Shown: positions 35,201 through 62,510 of the stretch, piece by piece
Layout of the letters: every line of letters begins with the position of its first letter
Position numbering within the stretch: the stretch's first letter is position 1
Source: Raillietiella orientalis
Taxonomy: Eukaryota
DNA: 64,000 bases
Reading direction: 5' to 3'
Assembly: GCA_036172245.1 (NCBI GenBank)
Contig: JAYWIR010000046.1
Coordinates: 186,001 to 250,000 of the forward strand
The notes under the pieces: generated by a model
Database searches by the model: none
What the model saw: the letters and a program-made list of their open reading frames with translations, nothing else
Told to the model about the DNA's origin: nothing
Program-made: the position numbers and the translations under genes

Positions 35201-36062
35201 TTGCCAGAGGAATGCGGTCAATTCCGAGGATACTCAACTGAGCAGAAATCCCGGGAAGCAAGGTGCGTTCCAGGCGCTAGATATCAGGAAAAATCAGAGA
35301 AAGAGCGCATTTAATTTAACAATTAAATTACAGGGGGCAACAGAGTAATAGGTATTTTTTTTAAATATAAAAGTATAAATTTTATTGAGTTTAAAAAGTC
35401 GATGAGGAGATATGCAATTCATATGAAGGGAAAAGAATTTCTTGCTGGCGCTTTTCATGCTATGTGGGAAAATTGATGAGTAGCTTATTAGTCGGATAGA
35501 TGGGGTGGATGATGCTTACTTGGGAGATGATATTGGAAGTGAAATTTAAAAAAAGGCGCTATCTGAGGAGAACGGCGAAGAATGCATCCTAATTGTTAAA
35601 GTAATTGTGATCTTGGAATTAAGGAAAGGTCACCAAAGAGAGGATTCCATTTTTCACGAAGTATCAACTGCGACCTTGACCTTGAGATAGGTAACCATAA
35701 GATGAAGATTCATAGTAACAGTCTGTTCGACTGAGACGAGTGATTTGAGCTGAGATCGCGTAAGCCAGATTGTTTTCTCTCTTTAGAACCTCGTACTCGT
35801 TGTGCATCTATCCACAAAGAATACCGAAAGAAATGCTGCACCTATTTCTTCTGAACATGATGCGCAAATGCACCTTGCAAGCAAGACGTGTTTCATAGTC
35901 CGATACGTTTCTACGCCCAAGATTCATGTGTGCTCACTCCGGAGTCAGCAAAACCGAAGCTAACCATTTTTGGAAACTAGAGCTTTACGTCAAGTTGCAG
36001 AGCTCAGTGCCCAGGAAGATGCCCGTCACAATCATCGATTCAACGACTGCACTTCTTCCCTT

Positions 36063-37703
36063 TTATCCGCAGAAAAACAGCAACGGTCTGCACAGAGATC
36101 GCTTTATTTGCACGCAGAAGGTGCATCTGCATCTGTCGATCCCGTGTACAATACATTTATTGCTGGCATTAGCCAGCTGACATGCGTATTCAACTCTGGA
36201 TTGGTTCTTACTGTAAACTAAAAAAAGCCATAGTTTCGATGTTGAGACAACGTCGATAGCTCTCCTAGGAATTCTTGCACTCTTAAAGTGTGGAGTCTTC
36301 AAGACACACTTTTAAGAAACCACAGCGTCATCTCCAGTCCTTCTGCTGAAAACTTATACAAATCGATATCCTCCAACACCCGATGTTTCTGCAGAACATC
36401 GCTCCTCATAAAAGAGCCTGTGACGTGTGGAAATCCCTGTCGTGGAGATATTTAATCATAGGTATCCAGCAGTCTCTCTACCTTTGTGAAAATCCCGATT
36501 CCGTAGAAAACCTTTCTGGTAAAGGGAAGCATGGATCCAAACACTCTTATGGGAGCAGCATTCGAGGTTCCCGAATGTTCGGCGAACTTAGAGCACTTTG
36601 CATTGGAGCCTTTGTCTTTACACCAAATCACCACTCTAAATGGGGTGTTTCCGGGAAGAGGCTTGGAGAAAGTTACACCGTGGAAAAAGGAATCCTCTCT
36701 CAATTGCAGTCTTCTCGCCATCGATATACTGAAAACACTTCTTTGATATTTGAACTTACTGGAAGCCACCAAATCTTTCTGATTCCCAAGGATGCACAGG
36801 GAAAAAACCAGAAATTCCAAAACACTTGGATGGAGATCTGGGAGTAGCAGGAAATCCAAGGCACGATCCCTCCTTTTGCAGGGCAATGTGGAGAAGAAGT
36901 TGGAATGCTCTCTCATCTCCCAGAAGGTCTGAGTCTTCGTATATTTTGGCAAGTTCTTTGGCAGACAACAAAGGGAAACGGATGAGTTGGATGACATCAC
37001 GGCAATCATCCGGATGTTCTTTCTGCCATCTCGACACTGCGTAGGCGATGTCTATTTCTTGCACTGCAAGCGTATTCCGACTCAGCAGCCGAAGCAGCAT
37101 ATCCTTCGAGATGTTCACGAAATCCATCGATTCCAGCATTAAAGGTGCCACTTCGTCAATATAATCCATGCATTCTTCTGAAAAATTGAATTCCTCTAAC
37201 AGCTCGGAAACGTGCACAAGCTCCAAGGAGTTGTCCGGATTTCTCCTTTCTCTCATGATATTCAAGCAGCTCGTTTTCAAATTGGGGATCAAATACTTGT
37301 TAGCCGCGTACAAAGTATTGGAGACAGTGCCCAAACAACTCTGGCTAGGTCCATCATCCGTGTACAAGAAGTGAATCAAATTGTTCATCGCCTCCAAACT
37401 GATATCTGGAACCTCCACGAAGAAACCGGTGTTAGATGAGAGTTTTCCGTAGAACATCTTATGGAAAACGGGACTGCCAGCTGCTAGCAACAGCCGGTGA
37501 GCATGGATCTTCTCTCTCTTTTTGCCACAGAGAAAGCAAACATCGCACAAGAGTTGCTCCTCCAACATCTCCTTAAATCTGTCTTTCGTTGTTGCTGTGT
37601 AGTTCTTCAAAACCTTAGTAGAGTTCAAACACGTCATACGTAGCTCACTGAAACACTCTCCTCCCTCGGTGCTCGTTGACTCGTCTTTCTTCGTTTCGCT
37701 CAT
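36063..37703 (-). CDS. BTB/POZ-BACK domain protein (BTBD1/2/3/6-like N-terminus), probably extended by short introns into an NHR-like C-terminal region
   Basis: Intact 315-aa ORF 37703-36756: LCDVCFLCG..IHAHRLLLAAGSPVFHKMFYG..EVPDISLEAMNNLIHFLYTD..TLYAANKYLIPNLKTSC (BTB); VQEIDIAYAVSRW..IRFPLLS (BACK). The ORF stop lies inside a GTAAGT donor. Putative introns at 36759-36729 and 36481-36437. The 3' end is uncertain. Confidence 0.88.
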
Positions 37704-38619
37704 TATGGAGGCAAACCAAATGAGGAAAGGTAGAGCTTACAGAGCTTAAAGTACTGATACAAAGCAGATTTCAGTAGAAGGGATGAAAAGAAAGGTGAAA
37801 GAACTAAAGTGCTACTCACAGCAGAGATGGAACTCGGAAGAGACGGTGCGAGATCCTTAGAGAGGGTACAGGATACAAAAAAACACGTATACTCTCTCCG
37901 GCAAGAAAATGCATGGAAATGGCACCGAAGTTCAGTTGGTGGAGGCAACTTTATGTTGACTCAGAGAGGACTCGTTTTCTTTTCTGGAAAAAGCAGTGTT
38001 GGCGATTCCGAAGAAGCGGAAGTATCATTTCCGTGGGTGCAGGAATCGACGCACACACATGCCGTAGCAGCACGAGAAGTGCAAATCCGTTGCTTCTCCG
38101 TCCATTTCTCGAAATGAACAAAGAATTTCAGTGTTTCTCGAAATATTCCACGGTATTGCGGTGTCCGTCGGTTGGCAATAGTTTTCCAAACTGTCTTCGC
38201 GGACGTACACGGGTTCCTTGAAGAAAGGGTGAAAGCGCAGTGCTCGGCACCTCACGAGACCCACCTCCTGCGTAAGATAGAGGTAATGAAGAAAGTGCTC
38301 CCAATCAATTCGAGGAAAGGCCAAGAGCATTCTTAGCATAGGTTCTATGAGGTACCGCAACTACGATGGAGAGAGACTCGCTCCACTTATCGCAAGTCGC
38401 GGAATGTAGGGTTCCGTTCTTTTTGCAAAAGTTGGCGTGCCGAGCAATTGCGAAGCGTTGGAGACTGGGAAGCGAGCACGTGGTCATAGGGGTGCTGAAG
38501 TAGTAGCCTCAGTTTTGAGTTGTTTGTGCATAACCTGTCAAATTCCAATTCGGTTTGCTTTTGTGTATCCTGAAATTGAAGTGCCATTATGATGTGTTTG
38601 GAGTGCCACTTGCAAGCTT

Positions 38620-39789: not shown

Positions 39790-42700
39790 ATCATCGCTTC
39801 AGCGTTCCTGGGTATGCTCCTGCTTTTCCTGGCAGTTTCCGCCGCACACTACAGGAGCTAGAAATACGAGCAGGAGCTGGACAGCTTGCAGTGGAAGATC
39901 GACCTCGAAGACATTGTGTTCGGAGAGAGCAGGCTGTACAGAGTCTGGAACTCCGAGAGTGACTTCCTATTGAGATCCTCCGATGTAAGCGAATGTCTTC
40001 TCTTAGGGGGAGGAGGAAGAGGGGACGTCTGGTATGGTCTTTCCCTTCTCCAATCAGAGATATCTAGCGATTCCTCTCGAGATTGATCTCGGAAAGGAAA
40101 AGGAGAAGACTGACCCGCCGCCCCTGCGAAGCACCCGTTTTCGACCCAAGTTTTTTTCTTTTGTTTTATCCCGCCATCCCCAGTGTCTCTCTTTTCTGCT
40201 GACCTTAAGGATGATGACCCTATGTCCTAGAGGGAGAGAACGAGACCCAAATTCTTTGCACAGCAGCCTGAACTCGAGTTTGCCTAGGGCATATTAACAG
40301 GGGTCTTCATCCCTGGTTATTAATGGGGTCAGCACTGGAGTGGTGGCCCGGTCAGGTGACCGCTGTTCGCTATCCCTGCTTTTTCCTGGGGATTCTTGAT
40401 CTCCGATCCTGACCGCCGACAAGCTGCTATTTTCCCGAGGAACCCAGAAGACCTTCAGGTCGGAGATACGGAGGAGGGATGGAAGGAGTGGTTTCACTGG
40501 GTTGGGCAAGTTTCCTGGCCTTTCCTCACGCCAGATGCCATCGCATCGGAAGCAACCATCAGGAACTGACAGTAGGCAGATCTCTGCTCCTTTTTCTGGC
40601 CGAAGCATATACACTTCGAATCGGGAATGAGAGCAGTTCTGTCCTCCCCCTCAAGAGTCTCTGCAGCTTCTCTCCTCCTCCACCTCTTCTGGCCTCAGGG
40701 AGATCTTTAGAGCAGTTGCTCGCTTGACCTAGCAGCCTTCCTCCCGGAGACCGCTGCTGGATTACACGCGCGAAAGCATTGAGCTATGCCTCCCTGTCCA
40801 TTCCTTTTCAACCTGTTCCAGGGATTCTGAGAAGCTCGTACGCGGATGCTCCTAGACACCAAAGGCGGAGCTCCGTCCGTACGCGCTCGTTCCCCGTCTC
40901 CCCCTCCCCCTACTGACGCTCCTCCCTCTCCTTGCTGCCGAGGTTCCTGGAGGATCCGACCCTCCCGTCTTTTCTCTTCCCCCTTCTCCATGCTTGCCAT
41001 CTAAATCCCGCCCGCTTATTCGGGTACGAGGCGCTCGGTTTCTTGTGCTGCGGCGCTCACGCGAGTGTCCTAGCAGTCCTTCGTGGTGGCTCCCCCTTGT
41101 GGTACCCGCGGAGCCGCAGCACCCGAGGGCTCGAAAAATGGAAGCTCTGTGGCATCTTCCTCAAGAGAAGGTAACGTCTAGGACAAGGGATCAGAGGGGA
41201 TGGGAAGAGGAGCGGAAGCAGGGAGATGGATTCCATCCCTCCTTTCTCAGTCTGGAGTTTTCCTCTTGGGCCAGAGACTCGCACCTCCCTTCGTGGGACG
41301 GAGCGCACGCTGTGAACCCTCTTTGTTTCTTCCTTTCGATCGCCCGTCGGGTTGAGTCCCGGTTCCTCCTGAGGAAAACATCTATGAGACCGCGCACGAA
41401 AAACTCCATCGCGCACCCCCTACGTGTTTCGATGCGTTTGGCTTCTTTGCTCCTCCAGCCCTCACCACCGACCATGGCAGGAAGATTCTCGGCCCAGAGT
41501 TCCGCGGCTCTCAGAGAGTCTCCGCGTGTGGCAAGGAGATTCACACGCTTCCCGTAGATGTCCTGAGCTGTCTTCACTGATCGCGTTTAATGATCCTTGG
41601 CTCGCCAATCCGCCTCCGACTGCCTCGCTTTGATCTTGGACTCCTCTTAGTAACCCAGGCATTTCCTGTTTCCATCGAGACGGAAGTTCCCAGAAGTAAT
41701 TCCATCCCTCACTTGCATCCCTTGCGGTGGTCTCTCGCGGTCTCTCCGCCGGTTTCCCCTTGGGGGACCGCGCCAGGCGGGACGCGCTTCGCTTAGCGCC
41801 TTCTCCCCGAAATTTCACCCCCATCGCGCCGCTTCCTGTCCCCCAATGCGAGGGTGGAAAAGGGGCGGATGGAATCTGCTCGACTGCCGGGCAGCAAGCA
41901 GTTCCGCACACCGAAGCCCTTTTTCGGTCCAGGTGTGTTTAGCGGACGAGTCCGACGCTCATCACAATGCGAGGTCGAGCGAGGACACGAGTCGAGCTGA
42001 GACTCAGCGAAAATCGAGAAACCCCCTCTTCGCGCAGGCCTTTTGCCCACTGAGGGAAGGCAAGGGAGGGAAAGAGGTAGCTACTTCCCTCCCTTGCCAC
42101 CTTTCCACCCTTATTCTGCACTCGAACTACCACGGGAGGACACTCTGAGCAAGTGGAAGGGAATGCTGCCCCTCGCGCCCCTTGGAGTACATGGGGGCGT
42201 CAACCTCTTGAGTGTGCGTGCGGGCGCGCCTTTCGACGCGGTGCACGTTCTTCGAACTGAAAAGCGACGCCGCTCGGCAGTTGCCTGGCAACCAGGATTG
42301 GCGCCAATCTTCTCCGCCTGATGGTCCATCGTTAACTTGCAGCAAGGATCCGAATCATCTTTCTGCCCCTGCTCCAGCTCTCCCAAGCTTGAATTCCGTT
42401 ACTCCGGATACTTCACAGAGGTTTGTTTCTACAAGGGAAAGATGTGTGCCCTGAAGACTGTCAAGAAAAACATCGTCCTCTCGCGAGCCATGAAGAAAAG
42501 CCTGAAAATCGTAGGTGGCGAGCGTGGCTCTACCCCGTCTTACGACACACCCCGCCCCCTTTACCCTTCAGGCAATAGATCTGCAGCACGAGAACCTCAA
42601 CCCCTATATTGGGATGTGCATCGACAGTCCATACATCCACATTCTGAACAACTACTGCAAGAAAGGAAGCCTCAAGGTGAGAATCGAAGAGAAACTGGGT

Positions 42701-45165
42701 GTTGAAGGAGCGACCTTGTCCTCCGGGAATGAGACGTGATCACACGCGCACCATCTTTGGGATGCTCTTTGTCAGCAATCCTTCTGCCTGGGAAGGTAAC
42801 AGTCAGAGACATCTGGCAGACGATGCCGCTCCCGTTTCGAGGCGTTTCCACAACTATTGACGGAATAGGCCCACACGTTGGAAGGCCTTTCAGTTACCCC
42901 GAATTAGCAGTGCACTGGGGAAGAATCGGGAGTTATTCCAGATACCGTGCATTTTCCTTTTATTGTGTGTGTGTTTTAGGATGTCCTGAGTAATCGAGAG
43001 GTAAACCTGGACAGGTTGTTCCTCATCTCTCTGGCCGATGACATCATCAAGGTGAGTCACCAAGATTGGGATCTAAGAAACATTCCATTATTCGAACTTT
43101 GGGAAGCTTTCTTCCATGCAAGAATTCAGAAGCTTTCTGAATGCTTGCATGCTTGAAGGCATCCTCGAAACTCGGGCGTCAGCGAGACGTGCATTCGCAT
43201 GCCTCCAGCAATTGGGAATCAGAGTGCATGAGTTTCCTCTTCATTTGTGTTTTGTTCTCCGCGATGCTGTCATTCCTTGATGTGAGTCCTCACATAACTC
43301 GAGCGACGCAGCGAGAAGAAGCGCGTCGTTTCGGAACGTGGATAAAGAATATTTGGACATGTAGAAAACAAGAAGGCATATTTAGCATTCTGATGCGATT
43401 TACGACAAAAAAAATGAACTAGGTAGAAGTGCTGAGCGAGTCTTCCATGCGATTGCTGAATTTGTTCCCCTCGTGGCTGGTTGCACACTCGCTAACCAGT
43501 GGTTAGTGGTCGTGTGGCCAATCTCCGTCGATTTCGGAGGCTAAAGATCACCAGCTTGATGTTCAAAGGATTCCGCTGATTGCAAGAATACGGAGACTGG
43601 ATAGAATGGGGATGCTACACTTTGTTTCATCTATCAGATCCTAGGAGAAAAAAGGTCACTAGCCTAGGTCCTTAGAAAGACATGTCCCCGAAGCATCCAG
43701 TGATCCATCAGTCATCCAGTAGACTGTCTTGCTCCTCCGAATGCCGACCGAAAGATGAAGAAGTTCATGAAATTCTTGTTGATTTGTTTGAGACAAAAAA
43801 CGACTGTCTTTGACTCATTGATCACCACCTGCTAAGATGAAACCAAACCCATTACTTGCTATGAAACGAAGCAAGCAAGGAGGCTACGGAAACAGTTGGT
43901 TTGGTGTATCGAGGTTTTTGGTAAATGCTGAGAGTGCGCCTCCGCATTTCTTCAAGTCTTCGAGCCTGCATTTTAATGTCTTTTACAAATGGCTTTGCGT
44001 GGTTGTCGACAGAGAGTCATTACATTGGGAAGTCTGTACCTGTTATTGTCGGAAACACAGTAACATGGGATAAATTCTCTTCAGATTACATGGCTTTTAC
44101 TTAATGCTTAGCTTGTTCCATGAGTCTTGGCAGCAGTCATTACAGAATATTATGAGGGATTACTCTTTACATTTGGATTTGTTGCCCTTGCAGCCTTCCA
44201 CTTATTAACCTGCCCACAAAAAAAGCTTTTTCATCTGAAGGTTCCACAGCTTTGCTGCCATGGACTTGTCGGCAATAAACTCGCAAATTTACAGATTGCA
44301 GCGAGGAATCTTCTTAGATTAGGAAATTTGCTGTAGTTAGAGAGGTCGATGCATTCTGCAAGTACCGGTGGATCGTTGGGTTAGTGCTGCCTGACAGCAA
44401 CTGTAAGATAAACCTTCACCTTCGATAGCCTGCGTTGAATTCTATGCATTTCGCGAGTAGTCATCTACAAGTAAACGCTAATTAAAACATTATTTCACAT
44501 AAATCATTATTCATTACATTCCAGTTACATAATATCTTAAAAATTGATATTAGCTTAGTATTTAAACCCTATAATAGCTACCTCTAAGCCCATAATCTAT
44601 CATTATCATCTTACATTTACAAAAAGAACAAGCTTATCCGTGATCTATTCGCGAAATGTAGTCATCTACAAGGAAACGGAACAGTGAAGAACCGATGACC
44701 ATTCGTGAATTCAATCCTCAGAATTTCTTGACGAGTCAATGATGAATTTATTTTTCTGAAGGGAATGATCTACTTGCACGAGTCCCGATTCGAATCCGTG
44801 GAAACCTAACTCCCACGAACTGCCTTATCGACAAGAAATGGAAATTGAAAATACCGGACTACATGTTTCAGAAGTCCAACGGGAGAATTCCGTGAAGAAG
44901 ACCAAAATTTGCACTGGCGACCACTTGGAAAGTAAGAATATCGTCAAACTAGAAAAATCAGTTTTCGTCTCTCCGATGTCTTGTATACGGCTTCTGAATT
45001 TATAGAAGAAGGAAATATGATCTCGTGGGAAAGTCCTAAAGGGGATGTGTACTCTTTTGCAATCGTTCTTTTCTATTTATTTAGCAGAAGGAAGTCATGT
45101 TTTAAAAACGATGATGATGAATTGTTACAGTCAGTCATCCTTTCCAAAAAGAATGTGATGGTCAG
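39790..45165 (+). pseudogene. Receptor (membrane) guanylyl cyclase pseudogene: TM plus kinase-homology exons
   Basis: Exon ~39790-39984 IIASAFLGMLLLFLAVSAAHYRS*KYEQELDSLQWKID (TAG at 39859-61 in place of W). ~42380-42510 EFRYSGYFTEVCFYKGKMCALK. 42572-42676 DLQHENLNPYIGMC..YCKKGSLK. 42980-43051 DVLSNREVNLDRLFLISLADDIIK. 44762-~45165 GMIYLHES/GNLTPTNCLID..KGDVYSFAIVL (frameshifted). Most boundaries are GT-AG. Confidence 0.88.
40700..42330 (-). mobile_element. L1/Tx1-like ORF2 3' remnant within the guanylyl cyclase intron
   Basis: WNYFWELPSRWKQEMPGLLRG..EDSSGHLREAC resembles the ORF2 C-terminus at 63150. Segment 41781-42075 has an inverted homolog at 58155-58430. Confidence 0.45.
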
Positions 45166-45439
45166 GTAAGCGTGGGAAATGTGCTACGAAATGCCCTATT
45201 TAGAGATCACTAAAAATGAGTATGGCACAAAGAATTTCCTGATTCTTACTGTGCTGTCTGCTTAATCACAAATTGTACAGAGGGGTGAGGATAGCGAATT
45301 TCCAGCTCCACTGAATGTGTAAGAATATGCGCTTCTTGTCGCATTATTGCATTTTCGGACCATCTCTGCATCCATTGGTGACGGATTATCCTCAGATATG
45401 CACCATCATAAAAGCATGTTAGGCAATTCGTCCTGAAGA

Positions 45440-46810
45440 CCGATAAGATTTTCGAACTATGAGAAAGAAGTTCAAACTTGTTTGGCACCGTCTCCAATAC
45501 GCTGTACGCGGCCAAGAAGTATATGGTCCCCGATTTGAGAACGTGCTGCTTGAATATCACGAGGGAAGGGAGAAATCCATACAATTGCTGCCAGCTTGTG
45601 GAGGTTTCGTACCTTTATGGGAATTCGATTTTCTCGAAAAATGCATGGTTTATATCGACGAAATCGCATATTTGGTTCTCGAGGCTGATTATTACTTGAG
45701 TCTCTCGAAAGACATGCTGCTTCGGCTGCTGAAGAGGAACTCGTTTGCAGTCGATGAAATAGAGATCGCCTTCGCGGTGTCGAGGTGGCTGATGGAGCAT
45801 CCGGATGATCGCCGTGATTTGATCCAACTTATCCGTTTCCCTTTGTTCCCATTCCAGCTTGCCTTAGTATACGAAGAATTTGACTATCTGGAAGATGAAG
45901 CAGCATTGCAACTTTTTCTTCACATTTTTTCGAATAGAAGGACATCGTGCCTAGGCATTTCTGCTACTCCTAGGTCGTGTTGCAGGTGTTATAGAATGCC
46001 TGGTTTTTTCCTTGTTCAATCTAAGACATCAGAAATAAAGAAGAGCTTCAGGTGAGTTCAAATACCAGTTAGTTGCTGTCAGTATTTCCATGGGTAGCAG
46101 ACTGAGATGGAGACGGTGGATCAGCTTCCTCGGTGTTACTTTCTCCAAACTCCTTCCCAAAGAGACCCCATCCATCGTAGAGATTCTTTTCGAAAAGGAG
46201 GAATTCAGAACCCCGTCGTTCTTCAAACATGCGGGAATCTCGAATGCTTCTCCCGTAGGAGTGTTTGGAGATTATATATTATGTCTCCACACTTCAAGGA
46301 AACCATGACAATTTTCGTTGAGGTGAGGAATATGCCGGGTGTCGATCATTCGATGTCTCCACGCCAGGGATTTGCATGGGAGAGTAGCGGTTATCTAGCG
46401 TACGATTGTGTCCCGAGCAAAGATACGTTAGAATGTAGAGTTTTCAGACTATTCAGGACAAGGACTGGATATGACGCTGTGGTTTCTAGAATGAGGTGGT
46501 TCTTTCTGCTGGACACTTCAAGAGTGTAAGTATTCCGAACAGAGCTATCGACTTCGTCTCAACTTCGAAACTCACGCTTTACAAGAAGCAACCGGAAGTT
46601 GGGGATGCATGTCAGCCGGCGGATGCCAGCAAGAAATGTATTGTACACGGTATCTGCAGATGCAGATGCACCGCCTGCATGCAAATAAAGAGATCTCTGT
46701 GCAGACCGTTGCTTTTTTTCTGAGGCAAAAAAGAAGAAATGCAGTGGCTGAATCAAAGATTCTGACAGGCATCTTCCCGGTCAGCGAGCTCTGGAACTGT
46801 ACATCCTTGC
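45440..46810 (+). pseudogene. BTB-BACK(-NHR-like) paralog, 5'-truncated and frameshifted
   Basis: FGTVSNTLYAAKKYMVPDLRTCCLNI (ORF 45478), frameshift to CMVYIDEIAY..KDMLLRLLKRNSFAVDEIEIAFAVSRW..IRFPLF (ORF 45459). Nucleotide similarity to ~37330-35990 continues ~800 bp past the BACK domain. Confidence 0.9.
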
Positions 46811-47499
46811 TTGGAAGGTCTCTCCTGTTCTACTACTTTACACTCTAGATTCCAAAGACGGTTAGTGCTGGTTATGCTCACACGTAGAAAAATCTTCAAT
46901 GTAGAAACGAACAGGACTATGGAACCACGCTTTCTTGGGAGGTGTATTTGCGATGTAAATTTTCGCATCTTCTGAAGAAGCAGCTGGGGAATAGCTTTCT
47001 GTATTCTTTATGGACCGATGAACAACGAATAAGATATTCTAAAGAGAGAAAACAATCTGATTCATGTGATCTAACCTCAAATCATGCAGGATTCTTAGTC
47101 AAACAGACTGCTTCCATAATTATTATTTATCTTATGGTTAACGAATTTCACATCCAGGGGCGCAAAATTTCACATCAATTAAAAATTTGAATGGAAATTA
47201 CACTGCTGTCGCTCGGGTAACTTTTCCTGTATTTCAAGAACACTATTACTTTGTAATCCATATTCCTTTAATTATCCATTCTTCACCATCCGTTCCAGAT
47301 AACGTCTTTTTAATTTCACTGACTCCATCTTATCAATTCTCTAAAAACACTGGTTCTAAAGGATCTTCTCGTCTCCTAACTTCCTTATAGATTTTTCACC
47401 ATTTTTTTAAATTCCAAATTCCAAAAGAATACAGTTTTACCCAATACAATATTTCATCCATGCTCGCAGTCAACTCTGGAAGTTGCGGAAAGTGCGATT

Positions 47500-52789: not shown

Positions 52790-53320
52790 TAGCAGCGCTA
52801 TGTCAAGTTGCAATGCTGCTTCATCCCCTAGAGGCTTCATATATTCCAGCAAGTTCTTTGACGGACAGTAAAGGGAAATGGATGAGTTGGATGACATCAC
52901 GGCGATCATTCGGATGCTCCTTCAGCCATCCGACACTGAGTACACAATATCTATTTCTTGTACTGCAAGCGTATTCCTATTGAGCAGCTGAAGCAGCATA
53001 TCCTTCGATAGTCTCACGAAACCGTCAGACTCGAGCACCAAAGGTGCAACTCCTTCGATATAAACCATGCATTCCTCTAGCAAATCGATTCTTGAAGGAT
53101 TTTTGAGGGATCATTGCACAGATCCTTCTCTATTAAAATTACTAATAAATTTCTTTCAAAATTTACTCGTCTCCGTCCATTTCCGGTCCACTTTCAGTAT
53201 TTTTCGTAGAATTCCAGGATCATGCGATGTGCTAAATTAGCTACGGTCTGCTTCCTTCGCAAACGCACATGAACTCCCTTGAAGAAAGGGTGAAAGAACA
53301 GCCCTCGATGCCTCATAAAA
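52790..53320 (-). pseudogene. Third BTB-BACK family fragment (BACK part plus upstream homology block)
   Basis: 52790-53085: EECMVYIEGVAPLVLESDGFVRLSKDMLLQLLNRNTLAVQEIDI / EHPNDRRDVIQLIHFPLLS (frameshifted). 53165-53315 matches 38090-38255 (ccttgaagaaagggtgaaag). Confidence 0.85.
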
Positions 53321-58154: not shown

Positions 58155-58430
58155 AGCCTCCTCTTTCCCTCCTTTGCCTTCCCTCAATGGTAGAAGGGTC
58201 TGGGCCTCGATTTTCTCTGAGGTGTCGGCTCGATACTGCATCGTGATTAGCCTCGGACTCCTCTGCCAAACACACTTGGACCGAAAATGGGCTTCGGGGT
58301 GAGGAACTGCTTGCTGCTCGGCAGTCGCCCAGAGCCCATCTGCACTTCTTTCGTCCTCGTATTGGGGATAGGAAGCGGCGCGATGGGAATGAAATTCCGG
58401 GGAGAAAGCGCTAAGCGAAAAGCGTGCCAC
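58155..58430 (+). repeat. Dispersed repeat, inverted copy of 41781-42075 (retroelement fragment)
   Basis: The reverse complement shares gcttagcgc..ctcccc..aatttca..cccatcgcgccgcttcct..cagcaagcagttcc..ccgaagccc..ttttcggtcca..gagggaaggcaa.ggagggaaagagg with 41781-42075. Confidence 0.85.
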
Positions 58431-59699: not shown

Positions 59700-60900
59700 T
59701 TCGTCAATCATATTGGAAAAGTTGAAGAGGAGCATATTGGAAATATGCTCCTCTTGAGCGCGGTGAAATCCGCTGCCGTCGTGGCGGTCTCCTTGGTCAA
59801 AGGAGCCTTCTTGATCTTCTCCTTCGCCGGTGCTCCAGGAATGAGCAGCAGCCCCTGGGCTTTCCTCCAGTTCTCATACCACCGGCATTCCTTCCTGGAG
59901 TGCATGAACAATCAACAGAAGTAACACAGCATTGGCTGGTTACACGCCTTCAGAAAATCGCCCTGCTGGCCGCACCGGTAACACCGTGCCATGGGGGAAC
60001 CGCCCACACGGTGCCCGCCAATGCTGTGTTACCTTGCATCCTACGCAAAAGACGGGCTGCTGCCTGTACTTGATCAGGACATCCTGGCAGTAGGCGTCGG
60101 TGTTGGACTCTCCCGGAATCCGCGCATCTTCATGGATCTTGATCCGGACGCTACCCTACCCGGAGATTTTCCCCATGTGGTTTCGAAACTCCACGTGGGT
60201 AAATTTCCCATATTGGGACAGGTACCAGATTACCTCCCGCGGGGTATGGATGCTAATCATCTGCAGGGACAGAGTGGTGGTTGAGCTTCCGCAGATGCCG
60301 TGCATCAGGAGTACACTGATTGAAATTCCCTGCTCGATGATCGCTTCCATCAACGGCTCACAGGATGTGCAAATCGTGAAGCCCGTCGCGCACGAGATGA
60401 TGGCCTGTATGAAGTCAAAATCAACGTTCTTACGGTGTAGTCCTTCACATTTGCAATTTTTAGGGGCCCTGTTGTAAAGGTCACCGCCTTGACCTCCGGC
60501 CCCACCGCAACCACCGGTGCGTCCGATCGTTTGATAATCAGTACTTCGGGATTTACCGGGGCCTTTTTCTTTGCTTGGGGCACGCCAGGAAAACCGCCAG
60601 CCATGGCCGCCGCATAGAACGTCGAAGCAGATGCCGCCAAGGTCGCGTAGGATGAGGGCGGCGTTGCTGCGGACACTAGCGCCGTTACCTCAGCTGCGGG
60701 ACTCGCTCCGTCTATTGCTCTGGGGGCCTGTCCCTTCCTTAAGCGGGACAAGTCCACTAGGGGAGTGGTCCTCCACACTTGGGACTGTCCGAAGAGAGTC
60801 CAAGGTTCTGGGGTGTGATGGCAGTTTTCACAGGATGGGCGGAAGTGACGTTCACTCTACATACTAGGGAAAACTATCCTTAGCACCTTTCTAGCAGGCG
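59700..60900 (-). mobile_element. L1/Tx1-like ORF1 (RRM-like region plus zinc knuckles), copy A, frameshifted
   Basis: GGFPGVPQ..PEVLII..EVKAVTF; ISIHTPREVIWYLSQYGKFTHVE; RIPG..DAYCQDVLIKYRQQPVFCVGC, followed by CxxC knuckles. Paralogous to 61200-62500. Confidence 0.8.
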
Positions 60901-60949
60901 TCTGCGTGAAAGCAGCCTCCCAATCTAAAAATTATATTTCTGAGTGAAC

Positions 60950-62510
60950 CGCGTTTGGGGTTATCGCGGAGATCAGCCCAGCCTGCGTGCAATATCCAGG
61001 CCTCACTCCGGAGGAATTGCCGTGCTGATCGCAATTGCAACCTCGAAGCCAGGTAAGTATTGTGATTCAACGTTTACATTCCAGCATACGATCTGGATGT
61101 TCCTAGCGGTTGACAGGAAGGTGGTCATTACAGATTACTTAGAATATCTCCCTTTCCTGTTGCGTTTCTTTTTGGGGGACTACGGTGTCCTCCTCCTTTC
61201 TACTTATCTTCATCCACGCTTTCGGACTCGGGGTCGTCGGTGCTGTCGACGACTGAGTACATGGCGCTGCTTTCCGAAGATGCGTGGGGCAGTCCCTTGC
61301 TTGCCACGCTGACATGCTTCCTTTTCACTTCCAGCAGTCTGTTCTCCAGAACAAACCGGTGCTCGTTATCGGACACGCGCTCTTTGACTATAACGGACAC
61401 GTTGCAGATGCATTTGAGGGTATCCCGCTGTTGCTTCATGCTAGAGCCTGGTTTCACTTCCTTGATCTCTTCTAGCTCCTTTCCTATCTGCGCAACTTGC
61501 GTCAACTCCTCGCTTAACACAACTCCCGTCGGCTCTTAGTAGGCTTGTTGGGCCTGTCGTCTTAGCCTTCTCCTTCCTTTTTTCCTTTTGATCTCGGTGG
61601 ATTCTTCTGCCGTGGTGGCAGTCTCCTAAGAAGCCCCCTTTTCTTTTGGTTTTTCTGTGGCCGCTACTTCTGGAATAGGCAGAAGTTCCTGGATGTCTTT
61701 CCAGTTCGCATACCGCCGACACTCCCTTTTAACGTTTCCAGACAAACCATAGAGAAAACACAGCATCCGCTGGTTACATGCTTTAAGAAAGTGGCCCTGC
61801 TGATTACACCAGCAACATCGTGCCCCTGACACGGTGCTCGAATAACTTACATCCAACACAGGAAACAGGCTGCTGTCTGTATCTGATTAAAACATCTTGG
61901 GAGTAGGCATCGATGCTGGCCACGCCCGGAATCTTTGCTTCATCAAACATCTTGATCCAGACAATACCTTTCCCGGAGAAGATTTTTTGCATAGGGCTTA
62001 CCAATTCCACATGAGTGACTTTTCTGAATTGGGAGAGATACTCCCAGATTACTGCCCTCGAAGTATGGATGCTTATTCCTTGCAGGAATACGGTGGCGGT
62101 CGAGCTTTCGCCAAACGCTTCCTCATCCTCCTTCCATGAATGTGAAGACCCTGTCAATGAGCGGATCAGCAAGAGACTCACATGATGTATGTAATGTGAA
62201 GCCCGATGCGCATGGTATTATCACTTGAATCACATCAGAATCGACGTTCTTCTTATGCAACGCTATATGTATATCTTTCACTTTGACAATTTTTAGGCTT
62301 CTGGTCTTACAGGTCAGGGCCTTGACTTCGGTCCCGAATGCCACCAGCGGAACGTCTCCTTGTTGGACAACGAGGACTTCCGGTTGTAGAGTCCTCTTAC
62401 GCTCCTGAGGCACACCCGGGAAACCACCAGTGGTTAACATCTGGTTGGATTTGGGAGCAGTCGCCGCCATGACCGCGTGGGACAACGGCTGTTTATCACC
62501 CGGTGCGCCG
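60950..62510 (-). mobile_element. L1/Tx1-like element copy B: ORF1 plus start of ORF2 (APE)
   Basis: ORF1 pieces 62485-62123, 62181-61804 (VFLQGISIHTSRAVIWEYLSQFRKV..YRQQPVSCVGC), 61859-61626 (CCWCNQQGHFLKAC..CFLYGLSGNVKREC) and 61520-61200. ORF2 starts at ATG 61128 (MTTFLSTARNIQIVCWNVNV, APE motif) and is truncated at ~60950. Confidence 0.82.

What the first reader, a model, noticed from the sequence alone, without database searches (positions are those of the whole stretch)
36290..36800. Conserved 31-nt and 45-nt GT-AG segments would fuse BTB-BACK to a Neuralized (NHR)-like domain
Seen: the BTB ORF stop sits in CA|GTAAGT. Removing 36759-36729 (31 nt, ends tttcag) joins ..GGFH-ISMARRLQLREDSFFHGVTFSKPLPGNTPFRVVIW in frame. 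Removing 36481-36437 (45 nt) skips the next TAA. The paralog has GT-AG segments of identical length and position (46052-46082, 46323-46367). Known: ARR..SF..GVTFS.PL resembles the NHR/NEUZ repeat, whereas BTBD1/2/3/6 proteins normally end in a PHR domain. Inference: a lineage-specific BTB-BACK-NHR Cullin-3 adaptor that ORF callers would truncate, using an intron shorter than the shortest other intron I resolved here (43 nt in ACOT9). Alternative: the 31-nt segment reads FKYQ in the +1 frame of both copies with synonymous differences (tat/tac, caa/cag), so a frameshift (programmed or mutational) is also possible.
Basis: partly seen in the sequence, partly recalled or inferred. Interest (0 to 1): 0.72.

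Follow-up and report, generated by a model that had tools for sequence, protein, structure and literature searches.

The report
BTB-BACK gene with unproven mini-introns
An animal gene for a ubiquitin-ligase adaptor probably runs on past its apparent stop, through one or two very small introns, into a fast-changing tail domain, but that tail is not the Neuralized-type domain proposed, the twin copy is a dead gene, and the splicing itself could not be checked.

Summary
The sequence features are real. A minus-strand ORF (37703-36760) encodes BTB plus BACK (Pfam 8e-23, 5.7e-11), and its stop lies inside CA|GTAAGT. GT..AG segments of 31 nt (36759-36729) and 45 nt (36481-36437) sit where stated, and the second copy has segments of the same length and position.

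- **No NHR:** the downstream 127-142 aa match no Pfam family at E<=10 (no Neuralized, no PHR). They have no credible relative among 1.84 billion representative proteins and no solved-structure match. A low-confidence model gives only a generic beta-sandwich.
- **Dead paralog:** it is 5'-truncated and frameshifted, so equal segment lengths show shared ancestry, not selection.
- **45-nt segment:** it is a multiple of three and skips a single TAA. That codon is TCG in the paralog, where the segment is open.
- **Other acceptors:** the same donor also has in-frame acceptors at 46, 49 and 61 nt in both copies, so 31 nt is not forced.

In favour of a real continuation, the donor is a perfect consensus in both copies. 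The downstream frame has 1 stop against 6 and 7 in the other frames (shuffle P=0.002). The tail has the length and all-beta character of the PHR domain carried by the closest relatives.

No transcript evidence could be obtained. Interest is modest.

The parts
36760..37703 (-). Exon 1 of gene A: ATG 37703 through the first two bases (CA) of a split codon. It encodes 314 full codons with a BTB domain (residues 43-152) and a BACK domain (160-255).
   Evidence: Pfam BTB 8e-23 and BACK 5.7e-11. Closest database proteins are 27-34% identical BTB-BACK proteins. hhalign against 6 BTB-BACK-PHR homologues covers residues 38-292 at E 7e-30.
36729..36759 (-). 31-nt GT..AG segment (CCA|GTAAGT ... TGTTTTCAG|T), a candidate phase-2 mini-intron. 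The exon-1 stop TAA (36758-36756) lies inside its donor.
   Evidence: Sequence. Same length and position in copy B, 46052-46082, with donor CAG|GTGAGT. The 9 A/B differences fall 4/3/2 over codon positions of the exon-2 frame, so there is no coding signature. No indel between copies.
36699..36714 (-). Three alternative in-frame acceptor AGs for the same donor: AG ending at 36714 (46-nt intron, GAG), at 36711 (49 nt, AAG) and at 36699 (61 nt, GAG).
   Evidence: Enumeration of GT..AG pairs that keep both frames open. Copy B has TAG at 46 nt and CAG at 49 nt (printed stretch) and GAG at 61 nt (my reading of the sequence).
36482..36728 (-). 'Exon 2': 82 full codons plus the third base of the split codon. 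It has no family assignment and includes the short peptide islands conserved with copy B (GVTFSK, SNA.P..VFG).
   Evidence: 0 Pfam families at E<=10. 2 hits, which I judge spurious, in 1.84 billion representatives. Atlas recognition 1273, below the 2300 mark. 62.5% nucleotide identity to B.
36437..36481 (-). 45-nt GT..AG segment (AAG|GTAGAG ... CTCCACGACAG|G), a multiple of three, containing the frame's only internal stop, TAA 36454-36452. Either a mini-intron or formerly coding sequence that gained a nonsense codon.
   Evidence: Sequence. In copy B the homologous codon is TCG and the whole 45 nt is open in the homologous frame. B's donor GAG|GTGAGG is better than A's. A 75-nt alternative (donor at 36511) uses the same acceptor.
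36299..36436 (-). 'Exon 3': 45 codons plus stop TGA 36301-36299. It ends in the best-conserved block of the tail (GLEMTLWFL in A, GLDMTLWFL in B).
   Evidence: The conserved block is visible in the alignment. The AF2 single-sequence model places two terminal strands here.
35993..36298 (-). 3' flank shared with copy B, with a strongly conserved block (about 36180-36000) holding two AATAAA motifs. Probably the 3' UTR and poly(A) signals of the gene (inference).
   Evidence: 78.7% identity over 362 nt. 75% over the whole flank, against 61-63% in exons 2-3.
45478..47140 (+). Copy B: an inverted partial duplicate of A (A 37338-35692) and a pseudogene. It begins at about residue 120 of the protein, has a frameshift in the BACK part and two further indels (-1 nt in exon 2, -2 nt in exon 3).
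   Evidence: blastn and tblastn, segment-wise alignment, three-frame translation.
52830..53091 (-). Copy C: a BACK-domain fragment of the same family, frameshifted, 83% identical to A.
   Evidence: Pfam BACK 1.6e-05 on ORF 52925-53110. Three-way comparison.

Best explanation
Gene A is the one intact copy in this window of a small, lineage-specific and partly decayed family of BTBD-type Cullin-3 adaptor genes (BTB, BACK, then a C-terminal substrate-side domain). The coding sequence most likely does not end at the TAA. A short phase-2 intron starting at CA|GTAAGT (36759) is removed and the protein continues into a tail of about 125-150 residues, giving a product of about 432-442 aa. That tail occupies the place of the PHR domain in the nearest relatives, which carry about 160-170 residues of all-beta domain. 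It has diverged beyond recognition and is best called an orphan beta-rich tail, not an NHR. The acceptor is uncertain: CAG at 31 nt, or the in-frame AAG at 49 nt (also 46 or 61 nt). The 45-nt segment is either a second mini-intron or old coding sequence in which copy A gained a TAA. Shown: the domains of exon 1, the signals, the frames and the state of the copies. Inferred: that splicing happens, which acceptor is used, the fold of the tail and Cul3-adaptor function.
For: (1) BTB and BACK are confirmed. Of the 22 database relatives, 6 are BTB-BACK-PHR, 7 BTB-BACK-SPRY, 5 MATH-BTB and 4 BTB-BACK only, so most (18 of 22) carry a further domain beside BTB, and in 13 of them it follows BACK. (2) The stop sits in a perfect donor in both copies (GTAAGT and GTGAGT). 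Only 2 of the other 113 long ORFs in the window do this. (3) The frame downstream has 1 stop in 142 codons against 6 and 7 in the other frames, with shuffle P=0.002. Copy B has no stop in the homologous codons, against 8 and 3 in its other frames. In simulation, 19% random substitution leaves no stop in only 10% of runs per lineage. (4) From the PR that ends the BACK linker to the stop there are 150 residues (165 with the 45 nt read through). The PHR parts of the 6 homologues measure 154-170, and Stogios 2005 gives about 170 residues predicted all-beta (PMC1257465, passages read). (5) The AF2 single-sequence model of the 142-aa read-through is all-beta with 7 strands, pLDDT 48.7 and pTM 0.49. 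One antisense-ORF control from the same DNA scored 36.7 and 0.32. (6) Conserved AATAAA motifs lie 140-190 nt past the exon-3 stop. (7) GT-AG introns of 30 nt (human MST1L) and 35 nt (Tribolium nAChRb1) are reported as validated (PMC4675715, passages read).
Against: The tail has no detectable homologue or family. Its similarity to PHR is not significant: hhalign P 0.028 with probability 1.8%, and global alignment z=1.2 with 40 of 300 shuffles as good. A-B divergence in exons 2-3 (37-39%) equals that of the putative introns (29-36%) and exceeds exon 1 (27%) and the 3' flank (25%). It shows no third-position excess (28/29/29 and 18/17/17), and dN/dS is 0.76 and 2.3. Even exon 1 shows little constraint on A's own branch: 20 A-specific changes spread 6/7/7, against 16 for pseudogene C. 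A's 45-nt donor GTAGAG is weak. 31 nt is below the 42-50-nt smallest class noted elsewhere in this genome (earlier AI note e1-7512962, not tested by me) and below the arthropod minimum in PMC4675715 (35 nt). I saw no clear branch-point motif in the 31 nt by eye.
Confidence: 0.5

Rival explanations
1. Decaying tail. The protein made today ends at ..GGFQ (BTB-BACK only, 315 aa). The downstream frame is the relic of an ancestral C-terminal (PHR-like) domain that was cut off before the A/B duplication, either by a frameshift or by shrinkage of an ordinary intron to an unspliceable 31 nt. It is now drifting, and the TAA in the 45-nt segment is the first nonsense hit in copy A.
For: Tail divergence equals intron divergence and shows no codon-position bias. 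TAA in A corresponds to TCG in B, where the 45 nt is open. No family signal remains. 4 of the 22 relatives are BTB-BACK only. The window is a graveyard of fragments of this family: B, C and a kinase-like fragment beside B. By simulation, 1 stop or fewer after 19% neutral change still happens in 34% of runs.
Against: It needs the perfect GTRAGT at the frame switch in both copies to be coincidence, at about 2% background. No stop in exons 2+3 in either lineage is about 0.10 x 0.10 under 19% neutral change each. Peptide islands with near-identical DNA (for example the GL[ED]MTLWFL block) stand out from about 61% surrounding identity. The single-sequence model folds better than the one antisense control.
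Confidence: 0.3
2. One reading: both the 31-nt and the 45-nt segments are spliced exactly as drawn, and the product is a BTB-BACK-Neuralized (NHR) adaptor.
For: The splice geometry exists and gives a clean 442-aa ORF. CAG acceptors with pyrimidine-rich tracts occur in both copies. The 18 nt after the 31-nt acceptor differ from B mostly at third positions (0/1/4), a small post-hoc sample. NHR is a beta-sandwich and the low-confidence model is a beta-sandwich.
Against: No Neuralized hit at E<=10 for any piece. No SPRY or NHR chain appears among the 50 best rows of Foldseek or VIA-align, whose top rows are C2 domains at Z<=7.9, a level the tool itself calls unspecific. The motif matches the gene's own BTB core equally well. 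One full-text search for 'neuralized homology repeat' with 'BTB' found 1 paper, a review on another topic judging by its listed title and abstract.
Confidence: 0.05
3. Programmed +1 ribosomal frameshifting, or an assembly error, joins the two frames without splicing.
For: The exon-2 frame is open through the 31 nt and for 97 codons upstream in copy A. FKYQ is kept in both copies by two synonymous changes.
Against: Differences inside the 31 nt fall 4/3/2 over codon positions. In copy B the exon-2 frame has a stop six codons upstream of the donor, leaving a 17-nt window that holds a consensus donor and no slippery motif that I could see. An assembly error would have to occur identically in two copies that are 25% diverged.
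Confidence: 0.02

Closest known systems
BTB-BACK-PHR (BBP) proteins: BTBD1, BTBD2, BTBD3, BTBD6
   Same: BTB then BACK in the same order. The best database hits with this architecture are 26-34% identical over the BTB-BACK part. The C-terminal region has matching length (150-165 residues against 154-170) and a predicted all-beta character (PMC1257465 passages). Btbd6 is described as a Cul3 adaptor with BTB-BACK-PHR motifs (bioRxiv 10.1101/575910, abstract seen in the listing).
   Different: No detectable PHR sequence signal. The family here is lineage-specific, with dead copies beside the live one. The tail is reached only through one or two very small introns.
Neuralized homology repeat (NHR/NEUZ) proteins
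   Same: Only a short motif-level resemblance (A-R-R .. F .. G-V-T-F-S .. P-L) and a beta-rich prediction.
   Different: No Pfam Neuralized match at E<=10. The motif is no better than a match to the gene's own BTB core.
Validated ultra-short GT-AG introns (human MST1L 30 nt, Tribolium castaneum nAChRb1 35 nt)
   Same: GT-AG ends, a strong donor, and a length at the physical lower limit (PMC4675715, passages read).
   Different: Those are backed by transcripts and this one is not. Here longer in-frame acceptors (46, 49, 61 nt) compete for the same donor.
Lineage-specific expansions of BTB adaptors with fast-evolving substrate-side domains (for example MATH-BTB in C. elegans)
   Same: Clustered, partly pseudogenised copies. 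The substrate-side region diverges faster than BTB-BACK. Such expansions are described in PMC1257465 (abstract and passages).
   Different: Only three copies are seen here and positive selection is not shown (exon-3 dN/dS 2.3 rests on 43 codons). That the C. elegans substrate-binding domain evolves under positive selection is my recollection, not from a call.

Membership tests
BTB/POZ domain proteins | Match to the BTB domain profile above the curated cut-off | tested here: met
   PF00651, E 8e-23, 81.2 bits against cut-off 20.5, residues 43-152.
BTB-BACK adaptors | BACK domain directly after BTB | tested here: met
   PF07707, E 5.7e-11, 42.8 bits against cut-off 20.9, residues 160-255.
BTB-BACK-PHR (BBP; BTBD1/2/3/6) | C-terminal PHR domain (PF08005) recognisable by sequence | tested here: not met
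   No PF08005 row at E<=10 for exon 1, exon 2, exon 3, the 106-aa frame or the 142-aa read-through. hhalign of the script-joined tail against 6 PHR domains gives probability 1.8% and P 0.028. Global alignment z=1.2. No PHR-coding stretch elsewhere in the window, with all tblastn rows in the PHR part at E>1.
BTB-BACK-PHR (BBP; BTBD1/2/3/6) | About 170-residue all-beta region immediately after BACK | tested here: inconclusive
   Length 150-165 residues. The model is all-beta but has pLDDT 48.7. The best structural rows are C2-type sandwiches at Z<=7.9.
Neuralized / NHR domain proteins | Match to the Neuralized (NHR) profile | tested here: not met
   None of the 5 tail or exon pieces scanned gave a Neuralized row at E<=10. 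HMMER's filters can drop very weak matches.
Neuralized / NHR domain proteins | SPRY-like beta-sandwich fold | tested here: inconclusive
   The model is low-confidence. Foldseek found 0 matches at E<=0.001. VIA-align's top 50 rows contain no SPRY or NHR entry, but Z<=7.9 is unspecific.
U2-type spliceosomal introns | GT..AG ends with a donor matching GTRAGT | tested here: met
   31-nt segment: GTAAGT in A and GTGAGT in B. 45-nt segment: GTAGAG in A (weak) and GTGAGG in B.
U2-type spliceosomal introns | Length within the range the organism's spliceosome handles | tested here: inconclusive
   I could not build an intron set. Pfam scans of 127+138+146 window ORFs found no other conserved gene and no genome is held. 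Literature minima are Tribolium 35, Drosophila 40 and human 30 nt (PMC4675715). An earlier AI note gives 42-50 nt as the smallest class in this genome (not tested).
U2-type spliceosomal introns | Removal seen in transcripts | not testable with these tools
   No run could be laid on the stretch.
Cullin-3 substrate adaptors | Binding to Cul3 through BTB and the 3-box, and substrate binding through the C-terminal domain | not tested
   Inferred only from the domain family (PMC1257465 passages; bioRxiv 10.1101/575910 abstract).

The most novel reading that the evidence does not exclude
The 31-nt segment is a genuine spliceosomal intron. It would then be shorter than the smallest arthropod intron reported as validated (35 nt in Tribolium) and about 10 nt below this genome's apparent minimum. 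It would join BTB-BACK to an orphan, rapidly diversifying beta-sandwich that replaced or outgrew the PHR domain as the substrate-recognition module of a lineage-specific Cul3 adaptor. Retention of the intron would give a tail-less BTB-BACK isoform.
Probability: 0.25. Interest if true: 0.5.

Novelty: new member of a known kind. Interest (0 to 1): 0.25.

Why it matters
If the short intron is real, gene callers will truncate this gene and others like it, and the case would push down the known size limit for introns in arthropods. The tail would also be an example of how the substrate-binding end of a ubiquitin-ligase adaptor can evolve past recognition while BTB-BACK stays readable. As it stands the finding is mainly an annotation caveat. 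The proposed new domain architecture (BTB-BACK-NHR) is not supported, and the 'conserved paralog' argument fails because the paralog is a pseudogene.

Tried and rejected
- **Transcript evidence:** The look-up of sequencing runs on 36250-37850, kind rna, listed no RNA holder.
- **Whole genome:** none is held. I could therefore make no genome-wide intron statistics and no search for further family members.
- **Earlier notes by place and by sequence:** nothing for this locus.
- **Relatives of the tail:**
  - Pfam on the pieces.
  - phmmer against 1.84 billion representatives gave 2 hits, which I read as repeat proteins.
  - ESM Atlas gave no usable hit, recognition 1273.
  - PDB sequences: best E 1.5.
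  - A word-based search with the PHR part of P0002 returned only itself.
  - Two metagenome scans, with exon 1 and with exon 2, confirmed no relative.
- **PHR hypothesis:** tested by hhalign, by global alignment with 300 shuffles and by tblastn of 6 homologues on the window. None was significant, and my colinear by-eye alignment is not supported statistically.
- **Second degenerate BTB-BACK unit in the tail:** only E>0.3 rows, so I rejected the idea as noise.
- **Codon-usage frame test trained on exon 1:** the proposed frame scored best, but the model failed its own control (second half of exon 1 not recognised), so I discarded it.
- **Structure:** the single-sequence AF2 model was low-confidence. 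Foldseek pdb and VIA-align wide gave only generic C2/jelly-roll sandwiches. The spliced 442-aa product could not be sent to the fold or family tools because joined sequences are not accepted there.

Full report
**What is there**

On the minus strand an ORF starts at ATG 37703 and runs 314 full codons. Pfam finds a BTB domain (E 8e-23, residues 43-152) and a BACK domain (E 5.7e-11, residues 160-255). The last sense codon CAG is followed by TAA at 36758-36756, so the stop lies inside CA|GTAAGT.

The 31 nt from 36759 to 36729 begin GTAAGT and end TTTTCAG. The 45 nt from 36481 to 36437 begin GTAGAG and end CGACAG. Joining the three pieces by coordinates in a script gives a 1329-nt ORF of 442 codons with a single terminal stop.

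- **One frame, one stop.** The 45-nt segment is a multiple of three. 'Exon 2' and 'exon 3' are one and the same frame, interrupted by a single TAA at 36454-36452. In the second copy the homologous codon is TCG and the 45 nt are open. The segment may be a mini-intron, or simply former coding sequence in which copy A picked up a nonsense codon.
- **The paralog is dead.**
  - It is an inverted partial duplicate (B 45478-47140 against A 37338-35692, about 75% identical).
  - It starts at about residue 120 of the protein and has a frameshift in the BACK part.
  - It differs from A by a net -1 nt in exon 2 and -2 nt in exon 3 (and my count on the sequence).
  - A third fragment, C (52830-53091), is also frameshifted.
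  - Equal segment lengths in A and B therefore show common descent, not maintenance by selection.
- **31 nt is not forced.** From the same donor, AGs at 46, 49 and 61 nt are also in frame and leave both frames open. Copy B has TAG and CAG at 46 and 49 nt and GAG at 61 nt (read). They arise from AGA/AGC codons of an Arg-rich stretch. An earlier AI note on another piece of this genome (e1-7512962, not tested by me) describes a smallest intron class of 42-50 nt that often ends in AAG. The 49-nt option in copy A ends in AAG.

**Is it more than chance?**

GT..AG plus frame compatibility is cheap: 27 pairs bridge junction 1 and 11 pairs skip the TAA.

The donor is not cheap. A stop embedded in GTRAGT is seen in 4 of 115 long ORFs in the window, and two of those are A and B.

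The downstream frame is clearly unusual. It has 1 stop in 142 codons against 6 and 7 in the other frames, and shuffles of the same 426 nt reach 1 stop or fewer with P=0.002. Copy B has no stop in the homologous codons, against 8 and 3 in its other frames. In simulation, 19% random substitution leaves exons 2+3 free of stops in 10% of runs per lineage. The tail therefore is, or until recently was, coding.

**Is the tail under selection now?**

The A-B comparison says little in its favour.

| Segment | Nucleotide identity, A vs B |
|---|---|
| Exon 1 | 73% |
| 31-nt segment | 71% |
| Exon 2 | 62.5% |
| 45-nt segment | 64% |
| Exon 3 | 61% |
| 3' flank | 75% |

Differences fall 28/29/29 and 18/17/17 over codon positions in exons 2 and 3, against 51/39/56 in exon 1. 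dN/dS is 0.76, 2.27 and 0.64 respectively.

In the BACK stretch shared by all three copies (226 sites), A-specific changes number 20 and spread 6/7/7. B has 28 specific changes and C has 16. A's own branch is therefore not visibly slower than that of a pseudogene.

Short islands do stand out from the background: GVTFSK, SNA.P..VFG, SPRQGF and GL[ED]MTLWFL. This pattern fits a fast-evolving or relaxed tail and cannot separate 'diversifying' from 'decaying'.

**What is the tail?**

It is not demonstrably an NHR.

- No Pfam family is credible. The 82-aa, 106-aa and 142-aa pieces gave none at E<=10, and the 45-aa piece gave one stray sub-threshold row, DnaG_cat_HB at E 0.063.
- phmmer over 1.84 billion representatives gave two hits at E<=0.001, both of which I read as repeat proteins.
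- The Atlas recognition score is 1273, where 2300 marks known families.
- The best PDB sequence hit has E 1.5.
- The motif that suggested NHR aligns equally well with the gene's own BTB core, 40.6% over 32 columns at E 2.7.

The nearest relatives of the BTB-BACK part are only 26-34% identical. Six of the 22 carry PHR, 7 SPRY, 5 MATH and 4 nothing further.

By position, length and predicted class the tail looks like a worn PHR. It has 150-165 residues against 154-170 in the homologues. Stogios et al. describe about 170 residues predicted all-beta (PMC1257465, passages). The sequence tests fail, though: hhalign probability 1.8% and P 0.028, and global z=1.2 with 40 of 300 shuffles as good. No PHR is encoded elsewhere in the window.

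A single-sequence AlphaFold2 model of the read-through (X at the stop) is all-beta with seven strands, pLDDT 48.7 and pTM 0.49. The stretch around the 45-nt translation is below pLDDT 50. One control, the antisense ORF of the same DNA, gave 36.7 and 0.32. Fold searches returned only generic C2 or jelly-roll sandwiches: Foldseek best E 0.034 with none at or below 0.001, and VIA-align best Z 7.9 with none at or above 8.

**Is 31 nt possible?**

A survey of NCBI Gene reports validated GT-AG introns of 30 nt (human MST1L) and 35 nt (Tribolium nAChRb1), with minima of 40 nt in D. melanogaster and 39 nt in C. elegans (PMC4675715, passages read). So 31 nt is at the extreme edge but not excluded.

I could not calibrate against this genome. 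No assembly is held.

**Verdict**

- **Most likely (about 0.5):** a lineage-specific BTBD-type adaptor gene whose coding sequence continues through a short intron at the consensus donor into an orphan beta-rich tail. The acceptor (31 or 49 nt) and the status of the 45-nt segment remain open.
- **Main rival (about 0.3):** the tail is a relic and the product is BTB-BACK only.
- **BTB-BACK-NHR architecture:** not supported (about 0.05).
- **Frameshifting or assembly error:** unlikely (about 0.02).

A related pattern, a stop codon embedded in a splice donor joining BTB-family modules, was noted by this scan in another genome (e1-7708725).

Noticed in passing
window 36000-36180 (and copy B 46610-46790): The most conserved part of the A/B duplication is not coding. 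It is a block of about 180 nt just 3' of the gene, by eye far better conserved than the 61-73% of the exons, and it holds two AATAAA motifs. It is probably 3' UTR with poly(A) signals, but an element on the other strand is not excluded: the + strand ORFs 35899-36177 and 35964-36218 gave no credible Pfam hit.
   Followed up: partly
window 44760-45170: Directly upstream of the truncated copy B lies a protein-kinase-like fragment (Pkinase E 0.0073, below cut-off, on ORF 44936-45166). By eye it resembles a kinase-homology domain. The duplicate landed beside, or was joined to, another gene fragment.
   Followed up: partly
window 46263-46465 (copy B): Copy B's two tail indels relative to A (-1 nt in exon 2, -2 nt in exon 3) sum to -3. 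The stretch between them is open in the homologous frame as part of a 143-codon ORF, 46098-46529. This could be chance or a trace of compensating frameshifts while B was still read.
   Followed up: partly
window 36759-37051, minus strand: In copy A the exon-2 frame stays open for about 97 codons upstream of the junction, overlapping the BACK-coding frame (ORF 36452-37051, 199 aa). In copy B the same frame is closed six codons upstream. It is probably a by-product of codon usage.
   Followed up: no
window 41788-41980 and 58228-58419: Another inverted repeat pair, 83.5% identical over 194 nt, unrelated to the BTB copies.
   Followed up: no
window 60895-61060, minus strand: A full-length U1 snRNA gene (Rfam RF00003, 89.6 bits, E 5.8e-21).
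   Followed up: no
window 1-64000: Apart from the BTB-BACK copies, 411 stop-to-stop ORFs scanned against Pfam gave nothing above noise. The one other row was TPR_9 at E 0.0074. GC content swings from 28% to 58% along the window.
   Followed up: partly
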